From the UHGV virus genome UHGV-0342252: DNA of 12,818 nucleotides. One strand, 5' to 3'. Shown here piece by piece: positions 1,551-8,760 of this stretch. This DNA comes from a virus. A program made the translations under genes and the position numbers. The notes beneath the pieces were generated by a model. The model was not told the origin of the DNA. It searched no databases and saw only the letters and a program-made list of their open reading frames with translations. Within the stretch, counting starts at the first letter, position 1. Every line of letters starts with the position of its first letter.

Positions 1551-3431
1551 TTAATACTCCGTCACGTTTTCCTGTCGCCACGCCTCGTCATATTCCGATT
1601 TCGGCATATTGGCGATGTAGCTATAAGGCGATCCTGATTCAAGTTGCAGGAACTGGTGCGATTGCTCGTCAAGGAACAAAGGGACGCCACCTTCCCAACC
1701 TTCGCCGTTACGTTGTTTTTCAAGCATCAAAACAGATGCCGGAGATGCCAGTAGCTGTTCGTCCTTCTCTGACATCTTTTCACCACTCTGAACTCTCTGT
1801 AACGCTCTCTCGCGAGCCTTGTTACGCCAGATGATGAAAAGGTTGTCTGTCAGGTCTGTTATCGCTCCAGAGCCTTTTACGTCCATTTTCCCGGTTGGTT
1901 TTTCTTCGCTGTCTCCTTTTCGCGAGTGAGTAACGAGAATGACGTGGGAGTTTGTTTTGTTTTTGAAGTCGCAAATCGAGTCAACAAACGCCTTCTGCCC
2001 GTTATAGTCATCGTCGCCTATGCCACATTTCATCAGGCTGTCGATGATGAATAACTGGATCCCGTATCGGCGGCGAGCGTAGTCGAATATTTCGATCAGC
2101 CTGTCGGCTTTCGCCGTTCCGGTCAGACCAAACACCCAAAGTCTTTCGTCATAAAATTTAAATGCAGAGTCAATTTCCAGCACTGGCGGCATCTTGCAGC
2201 ACGTCGCCTGACGGGTAAGGCGCTTAAGGAGAATACCAGGCTTCAGCTCAAGTGACGCGATGCACGTCTTCACACCCTGACGCATTGCCTCAAGTGCCAT
2301 ATGCCCGACAACCTCCGTTTTTCCGTGACCGTTCACACCATTGACCAGCGTCAACTCTGCCTCACGGAACTGGAATTTATCTGCCAGAGATTCCCACGGT
2401 GGATTAAACAGATACTGCTGCTTGCCGTAGAAAGCGTTGATAGTGTCCTGGTAAAACTCTCGCGCGCTGTAGAGTTCTTCAGGATCGAAGTAGGATGCCG
2501 TGCCGATGTACTGCCAGATTTCATCCTCGGTAACACCGTTCATCAGGCATTCGTTGATGTCTTTGTACGGCAGAGTAACAAGACGGCAACGATGTTCACC
2601 GAGTCGGCTTGCGATTTCCCTTGCGGCTTCACGACCAACATCATCAACGTCCATCGAGATGAATATTTCCTCAAACCTGTCGAGGTTGTGATACTCAAAC
2701 TCAATCCACTGTTGCTTAGCGCCTTTCCCGCCACCAAACGGCACGGATAACGCCGAGATGCCGTATTGCGCATAGCTCATACAATCAATTTCGCCTTCGC
2801 AAAGTACAACCGCCCTCACGCCAGCGTCCAGAGCCTGCCATCCGAACAGACAAGGTTCGCAATCACCTTCTGCCATAATGACTTTCTTCCCGTCCGGGCG
2901 CTCAGTGCTGATTCGCTTGACCTGCAACAACTCACCATCGCGTTTGTACGGAATCACCAGAGCATCCAGTTCTCGCTCTCCATTCCACACCTTGCCGCTG
3001 ACAACCTCGTAGCGCTTTACGACTTCTGGCGATATGCCACGCGATTGCAGGTACTCAAGATGGGATTCTGTTCTGGTAACGTAGCGGGCGATTTTCTTGC
3101 GATCAGGTCTGGAGAATTTCTTCTCACGTTTGGCATCGAAATGGTGATCGTCATCCTTGATACCGAGAAATGCTTTCGCTTCCTGCATAGCCTGATGCAG
3201 GTTAATTCCTCGACATGCCATCCACAAATCAAGCATGTCACCGCCGTCCCCCTCAGCGAAATCAGCCCATTTTTTCTTGCCGCTAAGGTTGACCTTAAGG
3301 CTGTTTCCCTTGTCACCGTTGACGTTACCGGCAACCCACTCATGCCCCTCTTTCTTGCCGTTTGGCAACAGGTGCGGAGCCACCCTGTCAACCTGCGCCC
3401 AAAGCAGGTCGCTAAGTTCACTTGGCGTCAT
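1551..3431 (-). CDS. primase-helicase fusion (Toprim primase + DnaB/T7 gp4-type SF4 helicase), 626 aa
   Basis: Toprim motifs (VVLCEGEIDCMS; ISMDVDDVGREAA), Walker A (NGVNGHGKTEVV), Walker B-like (QLFIIDSLMK). N-terminal region resembles a primase zinc-binding domain but has no cysteines. ATG overlaps the stop of a small upstream ORF (ATGA). Confidence 0.85.
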   Translation of the reverse strand: MTPSELSDLLWAQVDRVAPHLLPNGKKEGHEWVAGNVNGDKGNSLKVNLSGKKKWADFAEGDGGDMLDLWMACRGINLHQAMQEAKAFLGIKDDDHHFDAKREKKFSRPDRKKIARYVTRTESHLEYLQSRGISPEVVKRYEVVSGKVWNGERELDALVIPYKRDGELLQVKRISTERPDGKKVIMAEGDCEPCLFGWQALDAGVRAVVLCEGEIDCMSYAQYGISALSVPFGGGKGAKQQWIEFEYHNLDRFEEIFISMDVDDVGREAAREIASRLGEHRCRLVTLPYKDINECLMNGVTEDEIWQYIGTASYFDPEELYSAREFYQDTINAFYGKQQYLFNPPWESLADKFQFREAELTLVNGVNGHGKTEVVGHMALEAMRQGVKTCIASLELKPGILLKRLTRQATCCKMPPVLEIDSAFKFYDERLWVFGLTGTAKADRLIEIFDYARRRYGIQLFIIDSLMKCGIGDDDYNGQKAFVDSICDFKNKTNSHVILVTHSRKGDSEEKPTGKMDVKGSGAITDLTDNLFIIWRNKARERALQRVQSGEKMSEKDEQLLASPASVLMLEKQRNGEGWEGGVPLFLDEQSHQFLQLESGSPYSYIANMPKSEYDEAWRQENVTEY

Positions 3432-5303: not shown

Positions 5304-5945
5304 ATGCGCATGAACAGAACAGAAACTATCGCCGCGCGTATCAAGCGATTACGGGAAGATAAAGGGCTTTCACAGAAGGCTCTGGCGGAGCTTTGCGGCT
5401 GGGCTTCACAATCTCGGATCGGCAACTATGAATCAGGAACCAGAAGCGTTAGTGTTGATGACGCAGAGGTAATAGCTAAAGCTTTGGGCGTCGCTCCGGC
5501 AGAACTGCTTTTTGGCGACAACTATCAGGGACAATACAAGCCAGGGGAAAAGTTTCCGTTGATTAGCTGGGTTAGCGCAGGTGCATGGAGTGAGGCCGTA
5601 GAGCCGTACAACCCTCAGGCAGTGGATGAGTGGTATGAATCAGATTGTCACGTTGTCGGTGACGCCTTCTGGCTCAGGGTTCAGGGCGACTCAATGACAG
5701 CTCCTACCGGCCTTAGCGTTCCTGAGGGTATGCTGGTTCTGTTCGACACTGGAAAGGAAGCCGTTAATGGAAGCCTGGTAGTTGCGAAGCTGACAGATGC
5801 TAATGAAGCCACGTTCAAGAAGCTAATCATTGATGGCGGTAACAAATACCTGAAAGGGCTTAACCCTGCCTATCCGTTGATCCCAATCGACGGCAACTGC
5901 AAGATAATCGGCGTAGCAGTGCAGATGATGATGAAATTCTCCTGA
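5304..5945 (+). CDS. cI: CI-type prophage repressor with LexA-like S24 autopeptidase domain (213 aa)
   Basis: N-terminal HTH; C-terminal domain with Ala-Gly cleavage site (SWVSAGAW), Ser (QGDSMTAP) and Lys (VVAKL) resembles the P22 C2 / lambda CI family. Alternative start at ATG 5310. Confidence 0.9.
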   Translation: MRMNRTETIAARIKRLREDKGLSQKALAELCGWASQSRIGNYESGTRSVSVDDAEVIAKALGVAPAELLFGDNYQGQYKPGEKFPLISWVSAGAWSEAVEPYNPQAVDEWYESDCHVVGDAFWLRVQGDSMTAPTGLSVPEGMLVLFDTGKEAVNGSLVVAKLTDANEATFKKLIIDGGNKYLKGLNPAYPLIPIDGNCKIIGVAVQMMMKFS

Positions 5946-5968: not shown

Positions 5969-5993
5969 AAACCCGCTTCGGCGGGTTTTTTGT
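5969..5993 (+). terminator. intrinsic terminator directly after cI
   Basis: ACCCGC-TTCG-GCGGGT hairpin (5971..5986) followed by a T-run. Confidence 0.7.
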
Positions 5994-6032: not shown

Positions 6033-6095
6033 ACACGTGTTGTGATAAAAACAATCACATTTCGTGTTGACAGCACGAACACAATTTGTGATTAT
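6033..6095 (+). promoter_or_regulatory. oL / pL: three operator-like sites and the leftward early promoter
   Basis: -35 TTGACA (6067..6072), 17-bp spacer, -10 GATTAT (6090..6095). Three sites with the same CAC-N5-GTG core as oR (6033..6046, 6055..6068, 6079..6092) overlap the promoter elements. Confidence 0.75.
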
Positions 6096-6134
6096 CTAGC
6101 CATCAGCAGGACGCACTGACCACCATGAAGGTGA

Positions 6135-6165
6135 CGCTCTTAAAAATTAAGCCCTGAAGAAGGGC
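6135..6165 (+). promoter_or_regulatory. nutL (boxA + boxB)
   Basis: CGCTCTTAA (6135..6143) and GCCCTGAAGAAGGGC (6151..6165), matching lambda nutL as recalled. Confidence 0.85.
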
Positions 6166-6433
6166 AGCATTCAAAGCAGAAGGCTTTGGGGTGTGGTGAA
6201 GCCAGCTAGTCACTGGCAAGTGCTTACCTACTGTTGAGCGGTGAAGCGCTCCCAACGCTAGCAATAGCGTGGACGAGATGGGGAGCCGCGGGCGATAAGG
6301 CCGCCATAACGCGCACGTTGTCGCATGGAAAAATCGCTGGGGTGCCGGTTATACCCCTCCGAATGAGACTCAACAAGCTGGAGCTAGACTACCAGCCACC
6401 ACACCACCAAAGCTAACTGACAGGAGAATGACC

Positions 6434-6565
6434 ATGAATAACGAAGCGCTTAAAGAAATGATTGCGAAACTCCTTGAGGACGCACGCCGAATTCAAGAAG
6501 TGGAGCCAAACGCAGGGACACAATCACGTATTGATGAAGCGATGAAGTTGCTCAAAGGAGAATAA
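6434..6565 (+). CDS. small ORF (43 aa) immediately upstream of N
   Basis: SD AGGAG (6422..6426) 7 nt before the ATG; stop TAA lies between the SD and ATG of N. Product MNNEALKEMIAKLLEDARRIQEVEPNAGTQSRIDEAMKLLKGE, predicted helical. Below the ORF-track size cutoff. Confidence 0.45.
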   Translation: MNNEALKEMIAKLLEDARRIQEVEPNAGTQSRIDEAMKLLKGE

Positions 6566-6566
6566 A

Positions 6567-6893
6567 ATGGATGCACAAGCACGCCGCCGCGAACGTCGCG
6601 CAGAGAAACAGGCTCAATGGAAAGCAGCAAATCCCCTGTTGGTTGGGGTAAGCGCAAAACCAGTTAACCGCCCTATTCTCTCGCTGAATCACAAACCGAA
6701 ATCACGAGTAGAAAGCGCACTGAATCCGATAGACCTTACGGTGCTGGCTGAATACCACGAACAGATTGAAAGCAACCTGCAACGTATTGAGCGCAAGAAT
6801 CAGCGCACATGGTACAGCAAGCCACGCAGTGAAATGGGTGTGACTTGTGTTGGTCGCCAGAAAATGAAATTAGGCAGCAAGCCACTTATTTGA
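6567..6893 (+). CDS. N: antitermination protein N (108 aa)
   Basis: MDAQARRRERRAEKQAQWKAANPLLVGVSAKPVNRPILSLN... matches lambda N from memory over almost its whole length, including the Arg-rich boxB-binding N-terminus; cognate nutL and nutR boxB sites are present. Confidence 0.95.
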   Translation: MDAQARRRERRAEKQAQWKAANPLLVGVSAKPVNRPILSLNHKPKSRVESALNPIDLTVLAEYHEQIESNLQRIERKNQRTWYSKPRSEMGVTCVGRQKMKLGSKPLI

Positions 6894-7372: not shown

Positions 7373-7476
7373 TACAAATAAGCACTGTGTATTCATTCCA
7401 ACGAGTGAATACACGGAGCAATGTCGCTCGTAACTAAACAGGAGCCGACTTGTTCTGATTATTGGAAATCTTCTTT

Positions 7477-7503
7477 GCCCTCCAGTGTGAGGGCAATTTT
7501 TTT
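7477..7503 (+). terminator. intrinsic terminator between the 156-aa gene and the coiled-coil gene (tL1-like position)
   Basis: GCCCTC-CAGTGT-GAGGGC hairpin (7477..7494) followed by AATTTTTTT (7495..7503). Confidence 0.65.
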
Positions 7504-7515
7504 GACGGAGGATAT

Positions 7516-8484
7516 ATGAGTGAAGTAACAGATTTAGTTGTTATTGAAAAAGCAAATGCAATGACTGTATTTCAGTCTGCCGACCAGATTGAAGAAATCC
7601 TTCAAAAGGTTGAACGTGAAGTTATGTCCTTTGTGCCTGATATCACAACGGCAAAGGGCAGAAAGGAGATCGCTTCTCTGGCGTATAAAGTTGCGCAGAC
7701 GAAAACATATCTCGATGGTCTTGGAAAAGACCTTGTTGCTGAACTGAAGGAAATTCCAAAGCTAATTGATGCCAACCGCAAGACAGTGCGTGATCGCCTT
7801 GATGAGCTGAAATCCAAGGCACGCCAGCCTCTTACTGATTATGAGGAAGAACAGGCGCGTATTAAAGCCGAAGAAGAAGCTAAGGCAGCAGCTGAAGCTC
7901 TCGCAAAGCAAATTGAGTCTGACCATGAAATAGCGATTTTGATGGATCGCGAATTTGACCGCCAAAGAGAAGAGGCAAGACTCAAAGCGGAGCAGGAAAA
8001 GCGAGAGCATGAAGAACGCTTAAAAAGAGAAGCTGAAGAGAAAGCCAGAGCAGAAGCCGAAGCAAAGGCAAAAGCCGAAATTGAAGCAGCAGCAAGGCGA
8101 GAGGCAGAAGCTAAGGCCGCAGCGGAACGTGCAGAGCGTGAACGCATTGAAGCCGAGCAACGAGCACAGCGCGAAGCAAAAGAGGCAGCAGAACGAGCTG
8201 AAAGAGAAAAGCAGGCAGCAATTGAAGCAGAACGCAGAAAAGCACAGGAGGAGGCTGAACGAATCCGTCGCGAGGCTGAAGCAAAAGAGCAAGCCAGAAT
8301 AGCAGAAGAAAAAAGAATCAAGGACGAAGAAGAGCGCAGAGCAAAGGATAAAGCTCACCGGAAAGAAGTAAATAACAAAATACTTGCTGACCTTATCAAG
8401 GTTGGCGCATCAGAAGATGTTGCTAAAAATATCATAACAGCCATCGTAAAAGGCGAAGTATTCGCAACAAAAATAACCTACTAA
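7516..8484 (+). CDS. coiled-coil protein with long Glu/Ala/Lys/Arg-rich helical domain (322 aa), function unknown
   Basis: Start set at ATG 7516 (SD GGAGGA, downstream of the terminator) rather than the ORF-track start 7462, which lies upstream of the terminator hairpin. About 110-aa N-terminal domain, about 175 aa of EAEAKAKAE / ERAERE-type repeats, short C-terminal domain. Confidence 0.7.
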   Translation: MSEVTDLVVIEKANAMTVFQSADQIEEILQKVEREVMSFVPDITTAKGRKEIASLAYKVAQTKTYLDGLGKDLVAELKEIPKLIDANRKTVRDRLDELKSKARQPLTDYEEEQARIKAEEEAKAAAEALAKQIESDHEIAILMDREFDRQREEARLKAEQEKREHEERLKREAEEKARAEAEAKAKAEIEAAARREAEAKAAAERAERERIEAEQRAQREAKEAAERAEREKQAAIEAERRKAQEEAERIRREAEAKEQARIAEEKRIKDEEERRAKDKAHRKEVNNKILADLIKVGASEDVAKNIITAIVKGEVFATKITY

Positions 8485-8507: not shown

Positions 8508-8654
8508 ATGATTTACGCAATCGCGGGAGGCGCTCGCATGGGTGCCTTCCAACTAAATGAATCTTTACTTGAACGAATCACCCGTAAATTACGTGACGGA
8601 TGGAAACGACTCATCGACGTACTTAATCAGCCAGGAGTTCCAAAAAATGGATAA
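8508..8654 (+). CDS. cIII: CIII, FtsH inhibitor (48 aa)
   Basis: ...ESLLERITRKLRDGWKRLIDVLNQPGVPKNG matches the lambda CIII core as recalled; SD AAGGA before the ATG; stop overlaps the kil start. Confidence 0.85.
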   Translation: MIYAIAGGARMGAFQLNESLLERITRKLRDGWKRLIDVLNQPGVPKNG

Positions 8655-8760
8655 AACACTTATGGCTATCCAGACTAAATTCGCTATCGCCACTTTTATT
8701 GGCGATGAAAAGATGTTTCGTGAGGCTGTCGAAGCCTACAGGAAATGGAGGTCAAAATGA
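8647..8760 (+). CDS. kil: Kil-like host cell-division inhibitor (37 aa)
   Basis: MDKTLMAIQTKFAIATFIGDEKMFREAV... resembles the lambda Kil N-terminus as I recall it; overlaps the cIII stop as in lambda. The ORF-track ORF 8557..8760 shares this frame, but the upstream part lacks a start signal. Confidence 0.65.
   Translation: MDKTLMAIQTKFAIATFIGDEKMFREAVEAYRKWRSK

What the first reader, a model, noticed from the sequence alone, without database searches (positions are those of the whole stretch)
6434..6565. 43-codon ORF inserted between the N leader and N, with a duplicated ribosome-binding site
As I recall lambda, ACTGACAGGAGAAT runs straight into the N start codon. Here that SD instead serves a small ORF (MNNEALKEM...), and N has a second near-identical SD (AAAGGAGAAT) with the small ORF's stop between SD and ATG. 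This looks like an insertion that couples N translation to a small helical peptide.
Basis: partly seen in the sequence, partly recalled or inferred. Interest (0 to 1): 0.5.

Follow-up and report, generated by a model that had tools for sequence, protein, structure and literature searches.

The report
Small early gene wedged before lambda N
In this lambda-like prophage a real, conserved 43-amino-acid gene sits exactly between the ribosome-binding site of the antiterminator gene N and N itself, so it is the first protein made from the early-left promoter and N is read immediately after it; this is a rare but old variant of a textbook control region, and what the small protein does is unknown.

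Summary
Window 6434-6565 is a 43-codon ORF placed between the lambda-type N Shine-Dalgarno (AGGAG, 6422-6426) and N (6567-6893). A second SD (AAGGAG, 6555-6560) lies in its last codons, and its TAA stop is 1 nt before the N start.

Lambda, mEp213 and a 99.6%-identical E. coli prophage (0H26) read GGAGAAT-CCAG-ATGGAT at this point. The window has 137 nt in place of CCAG.

The ORF is a real gene. dN/dS is 0.05-0.14 at dS 0.5-1.0. It matches PHROG 32391 full length (E 3e-34), and a wider search finds about 100 clusters sharing the core LLEDA[KR]R.Q..EPNAGT..RI. AlphaFold2 predicts a helical hairpin (pLDDT 92). No function is known.

The same ORF-N junction occurs in at least five E. coli prophage backgrounds and in two diverged lineages, where ORF and N show similar dS. 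It is old, but rare: 5 of 855 E. coli genomes that match the leader-N region.

The architecture points to translational coupling of N to the ORF. Predicted masking of the second SD by ORF codons 13-15 is suggestive only. Coupling and protein function are inferred, not shown.

Verdict: a new variant of a known module, of moderate interest.

The parts
6067..6095 (+). pL-type promoter (TTGACA, 17-nt spacer, GATTAT). By homology with lambda the transcript starts near 6102.
   Evidence: Consensus scan gives 10 of 12 matches. The downstream sequence ATCAGCAGGACGCACTGACC is identical to the start of the lambda pL transcript in alignment A2.
6135..6165 (+). nutL: boxA CGCTCTTA (6135-6142) and boxB GCCCTGAAGAAGGGC (6151-6165).
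   Evidence: Identical to lambda nutL in alignment A2. In L009 and L010 the boxB stem changes on both sides (GCGCTGAAAAAGCGC and GCGCTGGAAAAGCGC).
6182..6414 (+). Long leader hairpin of Sf6/HK544/mEp213 type, at the position of the RNase III-processed N-leader hairpin of lambda. Its base pairs GGCTTTGGGGTGTGGTG with CACCACACCACCAAAGC.
   Evidence: Fold predictions. The arm duplex is -36.3 kcal/mol. The stem base is retained, with changes on both arms, in six leader variants of 99-255 nt. 98-99% identical to mEp213, Sf6 and HK544.
6422..6426 (+). SD1 (AGGAG). This is the N Shine-Dalgarno of lambda; here it serves the small ORF with the same 7-nt spacing.
   Evidence: Sequence; alignments with lambda, mEp213 and 0H26.
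6434..6565 (+). 43-aa gene of PHROG 32391. It is a helical hairpin with the conserved tip LLEDARR.Q..EPNAGT..RI, and is the first cistron of the pL transcript.
   Evidence: E 3e-34; dN/dS 0.05-0.14; 102 clusters; pLDDT 91.8.
6470..6478 (+). Candidate anti-SD element CTCCTTGAG (codons L13 L14 E15), complementary to CTCAAAGGAG, which contains SD2.
   Evidence: Pair probability is 0.84-0.95 in the window. The codon choice ranks 4th of 288 synonymous alternatives for pairing in all three N-adjacent lineages, against 232-266 of 288 in copies not next to N. The recoding null gives p 0.05-0.13 for the window, <=0.003 for L009 and about 0.3 for L010. Suggestive only.
6555..6560 (+). SD2 (AAGGAG) for N, inside ORF codons 41-42 (K41 G42), 6 nt before the N ATG.
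   Evidence: Sequence. GGA or GGG at codon 42 in every N-adjacent copy; GCA in EC12-type copies where N is gone.
6567..6893 (+). Lambda-type antiterminator N (108 aa). Its ATG lies 1 nt after the ORF stop.
   Evidence: Pfam N36 E 3e-25 and PHROG 271. dS to lambda and mEp213 N is 0.04.

Best explanation
The 43-codon ORF is a genuine small phage gene carried as a cassette inside the lambda-type pL-nutL-N leader.

Shown:
- It occupies the exact position of the N start codon. It uses the N SD at the same 7-nt spacing, so it is the first cistron of the pL message, downstream of nutL and the leader hairpin.
- It encodes a conserved two-helix hairpin domain that is under strong purifying selection.
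- The family is found in the early-left region next to the repressor gene in several lambdoid and other temperate phages. It occurs alone or fused to variable tails.
- The ORF-N unit has a single junction type, is old (the ORF and N have similar dS) and is rare.

Inferred:
- N is translated mainly by ribosomes that finish the ORF. The stop is 1-2 nt before the N ATG and SD2 is built into the last ORF codons. Pairing between ORF codons 13-15 and SD2 may mask SD2 until the ORF is translated.
- N synthesis would therefore stay under the controls that act on the ancestral N RBS in lambda: NutL/N-mediated repression and RNase III processing.
- The small protein would be produced at immediate-early time, together with N.
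- Its invariant hairpin tip most likely binds a conserved host (or phage) component, as in early host-takeover or anti-defence proteins. The target is unknown.
For: Anatomy.

Coding:
- dN/dS is 0.047-0.141 against the EC12, L009, L010 and L012 copies at dS 0.5-1.0, and there is an in-frame 6-nt indel.
- PHROG 32391 matches full length at E 3e-34.
- 102 clusters at 50% identity share the core motif.
- AlphaFold2 gives pLDDT 91.8 with helices 3-23 and 27-42.

Same junction elsewhere:
- Five complete E. coli genomes.
- Three leader types and N of 108, 110 and 124 aa in E. coli.
- IMG/VR and metagenome copies.
- The diverged lineages L009 and L010/L011/L019.

Co-divergence: window-L009 has ORF dS 0.49 and N dS 0.38; window-L010 has 0.59 and 0.64.

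Coupling architecture:
- The stop-to-ATG gap is 1-2 nt in all lineages, although the stop codon and spacer bases differ.
- Codon 42 is GGA or GGG (forming SD2) only where N follows. It is GCA in the EC12 type, where only 22 nt of the N 3' end remain.
- Anti-SD evidence.

Expression context:
- No promoter or terminator lies between pL and the ORF.
- Lambda N autoregulation through NutL acting on the N SD is summarised in PMC5725501.
- Early-left position of family members in phiES15, pAEv1818, Stx phage 75/02, BZS1 and L024.
Against: - No expression data exist. Translation of the ORF and dependence of N on it are untested.
- SD2 (AAGGAG with a 6-nt A-rich spacer) would be a strong independent RBS if it is unpaired.
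- SD2 masking is not predicted in L010 by the same helix (pair probability 0.01). It is not significant there (p about 0.3) and only borderline in the window (p 0.05-0.13).
- The three lineages share the anti-SD codons, possibly by descent or by a recombination tract. Codons 7-16 are identical in all three.
- The protein has no detectable similarity to anything of known function: Pfam, NCBIfam, PADLOC, PDB sequences and Foldseek gave nothing. The 'binds a host factor' step is inference from fold, conservation pattern and timing.
- The cassette is rare and absent from near-isogenic prophages, so it is dispensable.
Confidence: 0.6

Rival explanations
1. Passenger cassette without coupling. The ORF is a functional accessory gene that recombination happened to place in the N leader. 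N is translated independently from its own strong SD2, and the position has no regulatory meaning beyond early expression.
For: - SD2 is a 6-nt match to the SD consensus at optimal spacing.
- The cassette is present or absent in otherwise 99.6%-identical prophages. It moves among leader and N variants with 0-1 nt change, as expected for a mobile accessory gene exchanged through the conserved flanks.
- SD2 masking is not significant in L010.
Against: - The 1-2 nt stop-start distance and the SD2-forming glycine codon are kept in three lineages at dS 0.5-0.8. The glycine codon is lost where N is lost.
- The SD2 core is predicted to be paired in the window and L009 (unpaired probability 0.03 and 0.006, against a null mean of about 0.4).
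- Ribosomes terminating 1-2 nt from an AUG with an SD are expected to reinitiate (general knowledge of translational coupling).
Confidence: 0.25
2. Cis-acting leader peptide or uORF. Only the act of translating the ORF (or a nascent-peptide effect) matters, as a sensor controlling N. The released peptide has no function of its own.
For: Position in a 5' leader immediately before a regulator gene; short length; tight juxtaposition to the N start.
Against: - The whole peptide is under strong purifying selection (dN/dS 0.05-0.14).
- It folds into a confident helical hairpin.
- The same domain occurs without N downstream (EC12 type, P2-like L012, Pectobacterium, Serratia, L024) and as the N-terminal domain of 60-220-aa proteins.
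Confidence: 0.06
3. N-specific partner. The small protein acts on N itself (for example by stabilising it against proteolysis or modulating antitermination), which would explain co-translation with N.
For: Co-divergence with N and adjacency in three lineages. Equimolar co-synthesis would suit a partner.
Against: - The family is widespread in phages in which no lambda-type N was seen next to it.
- It persists after loss of the adjacent N, downstream of an unrelated N_peptide-type antiterminator.
- 850 of 855 E. coli genomes that match the leader-N query lack it, as do all lambda-type N regions found in the phage collection.
Confidence: 0.06
4. Not a gene: a chance ORF or a non-coding recombination scar.
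For: Very short, and absent from lambda and most relatives.
Against: Synonymous-biased divergence, an in-frame indel, a full-length PHROG match, about 100 related clusters and a confident fold.
Confidence: 0.01

Closest known systems
Lambda pL-nutL-N leader (N autoregulation through NutL; RNase III-processed leader hairpin)
   Same: The pL transcript start, boxA, boxB, the base of the leader hairpin, the sequence CAAAGCTAACTGACAGGAGAAT and the N coding start are all conserved. nutL is identical to lambda, and N dS to lambda is 0.04.
   Different: A 43-codon cistron occupies the place of the N start codon, and N is pushed 133 nt downstream behind a second SD. The hairpin interior is the 255-nt Sf6/HK544/mEp213 type rather than the lambda type. 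I found no description of such a cistron in the searchable literature.
PHROG 32391 and the related PHROGs 30817, 12693 and 2982 (all of unknown function)
   Same: Full-length match to PHROG 32391 (E 3e-34). The N-terminal about 40 residues match the three related families. Members lie in the early-left region next to the repressor gene in phiES15, pAEv1818, Stx phage 75/02 and Serratia BZS1.
   Different: Only the copies described here sit between an N SD and N. Other members stand alone elsewhere or carry C- or N-terminal extensions.
Classical translational coupling of adjacent cistrons (termination-reinitiation, or unmasking of a downstream RBS by upstream translation, as in the MS2 coat-replicase pair and ribosomal-protein operons; from general knowledge)
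   Same: The stop is 1-2 nt from the next AUG. The downstream SD lies inside the upstream ORF. SD2 is predicted to pair with an internal ORF segment in the window and L009.
   Different: Functional dependence is not tested. The masking helix is not conserved in L010.
Morons of lambdoid phages (autonomous accessory genes with their own promoter and terminator; from general knowledge)
   Same: Patchy presence or absence between otherwise near-identical prophages.
   Different: No promoter or terminator of its own. It is embedded in the leader and uses the N RBS.
Lambda CIII (54-aa helical early-left protein that inhibits FtsH)
   Same: A small helical protein of the pL operon, with a resemblance by eye to the ESLLERITRKLRD segment.
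   Different: No homology (hhalign probability 0.07%). The window has its own cIII and kil at about 8508-8750.
Gp4 of Pseudomonas phage LUZ24 (PDB 6yse), a 46-aa early helical hairpin
   Same: Best PDB fold match in size and shape (TM 0.73).
   Different: Not significant (E 1.7, 23% identity). This is a generic helical hairpin, an analogy only.

Membership tests
Lambda-type N antitermination module | N protein with the arginine-rich N36 boxB-binding peptide | tested here: met
   Pfam PF11438 (N36) E 3e-25 for 6567-6893; PHROG 271.
Lambda-type N antitermination module | nutL (boxA plus the boxB hairpin with a GAAGA-type loop) between pL and N | tested here: met
   6135-6165 is identical to lambda nutL in alignment A2. 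The boxB stem was also picked up in the hairpin scan.
Lambda-type N antitermination module | Long leader hairpin between nutL and the N RBS (the RNase III substrate in lambda) | tested here: met
   The hairpin is predicted, and its base is conserved with changes on both arms in six leader variants. RNase III cleavage itself cannot be tested here.
Lambda-type N antitermination module | The N start codon directly follows the leader SD | tested here: not met
   The SD at 6422-6426 is followed by the 43-codon ORF. N starts 133 nt further downstream than in lambda, mEp213 and 0H26.
PHROG 32391 small phage protein | Full-length match to the 43-position profile | tested here: met
   E 3.1e-34, residues 1-43 against profile positions 1-43.
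Cis-acting regulatory leader peptide (uORF) | The peptide is found only upstream of the regulated gene, and its sequence is unconstrained except for a sensing or arrest motif | tested here: not met
   The family occurs away from N and as a domain of longer proteins. dN/dS is 0.05-0.14 over the 36 codons compared.
Translationally coupled gene pair | Stop of the upstream ORF within a few nt of the downstream start, with the downstream SD inside the upstream ORF | tested here: met
   TAA-A-ATG in the window, TAA-AA-ATG in L009, TAG-CC-ATG in L010. SD2 lies in codons 41-42.
Translationally coupled gene pair | Downstream RBS masked by RNA structure that upstream translation opens | tested here: inconclusive
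   Unpaired probability of the SD2 core is 0.03 (window), 0.006 (L009) and 0.30 (L010), against null means of 0.36-0.45. p is 0.05-0.13, <=0.003 and about 0.3 respectively.
Translationally coupled gene pair | Downstream translation falls when upstream translation is blocked | not testable with these tools
   Needs reporter fusions or ribosome profiling.
Moron | Own promoter and terminator flanking the inserted gene | tested here: not met
   No promoter-like or terminator-like site between 6096 and 6893 on the + strand.
Lambda CIII family | Sequence or profile similarity to PF02061 | tested here: not met
   No Pfam hit at E<=1. hhalign probability 0.07%. The control lambda CIII sequence hits PF02061 at 1.5e-30.

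The most novel reading that the evidence does not exclude
Translation of the ORF is an obligatory switch for N synthesis. In this reading SD2 is locked by pairing with ORF codons 13-15, so N is made only by ribosomes that have read the small gene. NutL/N repression and RNase III control would then govern both proteins. The 43-aa hairpin would be a previously uncharacterised immediate-early effector whose invariant EPNAGT tip binds a conserved host target. That would make it a new family of early phage host-takeover or anti-defence proteins, carried as a mobile cassette in the lambda N leader.
Probability: 0.2. Interest if true: 0.55.

Novelty: new variant of a known kind. Interest (0 to 1): 0.35.

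Why it matters
The pL-nutL-N leader of lambda is one of the best-studied regulatory regions in biology. N translation there is controlled by an RNA-polymerase-tethered NutL complex and by RNase III.

A natural allele that puts another cistron exactly at the N start codon is a ready-made test of two questions. How far does that control reach? And can N expression be relayed through translational coupling?

Near-isogenic prophages with and without the cassette exist: this window against the E. coli 0H26 type.

The finding also flags a small, sharply conserved helical-hairpin domain (about 100 clusters) that temperate phages of Enterobacterales and Aeromonas repeatedly place near the start of their early-left operons. 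No function is known for it. Early, promoter-proximal phage genes are a frequent source of host-takeover and anti-defence activities.

Tried and rejected
- Rfam scan of the whole window: no family at gathering threshold.
- Pfam, NCBIfam and PADLOC on the ORF and on longer family members: nothing significant.
- PDB sequence profile search: nothing below E 0.78.
- Foldseek against PDB and BFVD: only family members, or generic helical hairpins at E>0.2.
- CIII homologue or replacement: rejected.
- Moron with its own promoter and terminator: rejected.
- Programmed frameshift or ORF-N fusion: rejected. N is in the +1 frame relative to the ORF in the window but +2 in L009 and L010.
- Simple deletion between the AGGAGAAT repeats as the origin of ORF-less alleles: this does not reproduce their spacers (CCAG, TCCACA or TCACA, against AAA).
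- Metagenome and species-representative genome scans for more diverged ORF-N junctions: only copies of lineages already found. The covariation test for the anti-SD helix therefore stays underpowered.
- Closest relatives of the L010-type N (Yokenella, Citrobacter and others): all lack the ORF. The ancestral state (gain or loss) could not be settled.
- Literature searches for the motif, the protein accession, the PHROG ids, or an ORF upstream of N: no hits. Wilson et al. 2002 (PMC126142) is not held.

Full report
**What is there**

The window is the immunity and early-left region of a lambdoid prophage, read in the direction of pL transcription. The features, in order:
- A LexA-family cI-like repressor at 5304-5945 and its terminator at 5969-5988.
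- A pL-type promoter at 6067-6095.
- A nutL site identical to that of lambda: boxA at 6135-6142 and boxB at 6151-6165.
- A roughly 230-nt leader hairpin at 6182-6414.
- The sequence CAAAGCTAACTGACAGGAGAAT.
- A 43-codon ORF at 6434-6565.
- One nucleotide after its TAA, a lambda-type N gene at 6567-6893 (Pfam N36 E 3e-25).

SD1 (AGGAG, 6422-6426) lies 7 nt before the ORF ATG. That is the same spacing it has to the N ATG in lambda. SD2 (AAGGAG, 6555-6560) lies inside ORF codons 41-42, 6 nt before the N ATG.

**Comparison with lambda and close relatives**

Megablast against 50,697 phage records finds mEp213, HK633, HK446, Sf6, Sf101, mEp043 and HK544 at 98-99% identity. The matches always come in two pieces that skip about 130 nt, and no record covers 80% of the query. 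The alignment shows lambda and mEp213 reading GGAGAAT-CCAG-ATGGATGCACAA. The window has 137 nt (6430-6566) in place of CCAG.

E. coli 0H26 and its sister strains carry the same repressor, leader, N and downstream 156-aa gene at 99.6% identity, but without the ORF. Relative to a near-isogenic prophage, the ORF is an extra cassette, bounded by the 8-nt direct repeat AGGAGAAT.

**Is the ORF a gene?**

Yes. The evidence:
- It matches PHROG 32391 (a 43-position profile of unknown function) over its full length at E 3e-34. Its first roughly 40 residues also match PHROGs 30817, 12693 and 2982.
- tblastn finds stand-alone homologues of about 43 aa in Pectobacterium phages (75% identity) and in Serratia phage BZS1.
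- The same sequence forms the N-terminal domain of 92-119-aa proteins in Cronobacter phiES15, Aeromonas pAEv1818 and the Stx phages 75/02 and POCJ13.
- An HMMER scan of 1.84 billion cluster representatives gives 102 clusters at E<=1e-3. They share the core [ED]LKh[VI]IA.LLEDA[KR]R.Q..EPNAGT..RI..A, either alone or with variable extensions.
- Nei-Gojobori estimates over 36 alignable codons give dN/dS of 0.047-0.141 between the window copy and the EC12, L009, L010 and L012 copies, at dS 0.5-1.0. The EC12-type copy differs by an in-frame 6-nt indel.
- AlphaFold2 with a 51-sequence alignment predicts a two-helix hairpin (helices 3-23 and 27-42, loop EPN) at mean pLDDT 91.8.

Pfam, NCBIfam, PADLOC, PDB sequences and Foldseek give no informative relative. 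The function is unknown.

**How widespread and how old is the ORF-N arrangement?**

In 5,426 complete E. coli genomes, 855 match the leader-N query. Only 5 carry ORF plus N, and a sixth carries the ORF elsewhere. PGAP annotates the ORF as hypothetical protein WP_001701111.1.

Within E. coli and IMG/VR the ORF differs by 0-1 nt. It nevertheless sits behind three different leader hairpins (104, 166 and 262 nt from the conserved leader segment 3' of boxB, CAAAGCAGAAGGCTTTG, to the ORF ATG). It sits in front of N genes of 108, 110 and 124 aa, next to different repressors. The cassette is therefore exchanged through the conserved flanks.

Two diverged lineages have the same junction: L009 and L010/L011/L019. 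Their N proteins are closest to those of Yokenella, Citrobacter and Klebsiella prophages. The junction reads GGAGAA[T/G]GACC-ATG ... AAAGG[A/G]GAATA[A/G], then 2 nt, then ATGGATGCACAA.

In these lineages the ORF and N have diverged to the same degree. Window against L009 gives ORF dS 0.49 and N dS 0.38. Window against L010 gives 0.59 and 0.64. That indicates a single origin and long co-residence. The nearest N relatives of the L010 type all lack the ORF (GGAGATCCACAATGGAT). The cassette is therefore an old, low-frequency presence/absence polymorphism in both N clades. Whether ORF-less alleles are ancestral or are losses cannot be decided.

**A derived arrangement**

In E. coli EC12 and in L020, L021 and L027 the order is as follows:
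- an unrelated N_peptide-type antiterminator;
- a diverged remnant of the N-leader end (CTAACCGACA[G/T]GAGCATGACC);
- the ORF;
- 22 nt identical to the 3' end of the window-type N gene;
- the next gene.

This is an ORF-N unit that has lost N. In these copies the last codons are AAA GCA GAA. In every copy followed by N they are AAA GGA/GGG GAA. The glycine codon that creates SD2 is thus kept exactly where an N gene needs it.

**How N is probably translated**

The stop-start gap of 1-2 nt, conserved although the stop codon and spacer bases differ, and the SD embedded in the ORF end together form the standard architecture of translational coupling.

In addition, codons 13-15 (CTCCTTGAG, 6470-6478) are complementary to CTCAAAGGAG, which contains SD2. 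The tests gave these results:
- Pair probability for this helix: 0.84-0.95 in the window, 0.5-0.99 in L009, and 0.01 in L010. In the L010 MFE SD2 (GGGG) pairs with a stretch I read as the UCCC created by a synonymous TCC codon.
- Codon choice: among 288 synonymous versions of K-L-L-E-D, the actual codons rank 4th for pairing with the SD2 tail in all three N-adjacent lineages. They rank 232nd-266th in copies not followed by N (EC12, L012 and Amona; BZS1, with its own tail, ranks 48th).
- Synonymous-recoding nulls: SD2 is more masked than expected in L009 (p<=0.003), borderline in the window (p 0.05-0.13) and not in L010 (p about 0.3).
- Caveat: the three lineages share these codons, and codons 7-16 are identical in all three. 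Descent or a recombination tract could explain that.

I treat masking as a lead, not a finding.

**Consequence for regulation (inference)**

In lambda, N and the Nus factors bound at NutL repress translation from the N SD about 200 nt downstream. The intervening RNA is highly structured and is an RNase III substrate (summarised in PMC5725501; the details are from my own knowledge of Wilson, Court and colleagues).

In the window that SD, with its identical upstream context, drives the small ORF. If N is coupled to the ORF, both proteins remain under that control. If SD2 initiates independently, N escapes it. The small protein is in any case produced from the first cistron of the immediate-early pL message, before any terminator.

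**What the protein may do (inference)**

Family members sit in the early-left region next to the repressor gene in several temperate phages:
- first annotated gene downstream of the repressor in phiES15 and pAEv1818, and immediately downstream of a promoter-like sequence in L023;
- second in Stx phage 75/02;
- third in BZS1;
- downstream of an N-leader-like hairpin in L024.

The conserved polar residues cluster at the hairpin tip (E15, D16, R19, Q21, E24, P25, N26, G28, T29, R32). The domain tolerates arbitrary C-terminal tails. This pattern fits a small binding module aimed at a conserved host or phage component.

It is not CIII. It is not N-specific either, since it persists without lambda-type N.

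**Verdict**

The ORF is a bona fide conserved small gene, not just a leader peptide. Its placement at the N start codon, with an SD2 that is maintained only when N follows, argues for coupled expression. Coupling, masking and protein function remain untested.

I found no description of this arrangement in the searchable literature. It is a new variant of a very well known module: moderately interesting to lambda specialists and otherwise an ordinary example of phage mosaicism.

Noticed in passing
window 8508-8750: A cIII homologue (79% identical to lambda CIII by tblastn) reaches a stop after ...VPKNG, so it lacks the last 9 residues of lambda CIII. Its end overlaps the start of a kil homologue (88% identical).
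   Followed up: partly
window 7462-8484; L024 2944-3747: A 340-aa ORF, extremely rich in E, A, K and R (long EAEAKAKAE-type stretch), with no Pfam hit. PGAP calls the 0H26 counterpart 'TolA'. A 267-aa relative with the same MSEVTDL..VIE start follows the small-gene family member in Escherichia sp. E1V33.
   Followed up: no
L001 (phage mEp213) 1845-2177 and 3330-3398: mEp213 is annotated with two antitermination N genes in the same leftward operon: a lambda-type N just after pL, and an HK620-type N about 1.2 kb further downstream.
   Followed up: no
L014 2413-2470; L009 3915-3965; L040 about 830-870; L024 2278-2340: Several otherwise different N-leader hairpins share an interior motif (AAATGCAGCTGC.AGACAG.AAC.GG.AGATAAGCATC). 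The same hairpin occurs in L024 upstream of a small-gene family member, where no N36-type N follows it.
   Followed up: partly
window 6292-6302; L001 1703-1713; L023 2467-2477; L024 2471-2481: The 11-mer GCGATAAGGCC, in a GC-rich mini-hairpin context, occurs inside the Sf6/mEp213-type leader. It also occurs about 15-25 nt upstream of the start codon of family members in L023, L024, L028 and L029 (CCGTT.GCCGCGATAAGGCCA).
   Followed up: no
L024 2492-2781; L028; L029: In a different lineage, the 42-aa family member overlaps the next gene (54 aa, MTVTHNGKQY...) by ATGA. Tight coupling to the downstream cistron is therefore not unique to the N-adjacent copies.
   Followed up: no
window 6452-6481 (ORF codons 7-16): These 30 nt are identical in the window, L009 and L010 lineages, although the rest of the ORF has dS 0.5-0.8. 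The EC12 and L012 copies have 3-5 synonymous changes there. This could reflect an RNA-level constraint or a recombination tract.
   Followed up: partly
L003 (E. coli EC12) 1779-3120: Between the repressor gene and the N_peptide-type antiterminator, this prophage carries a HigB-family toxin, an HTH protein and a further ORF. That is an accessory insertion between the repressor gene and the antiterminator.
   Followed up: no
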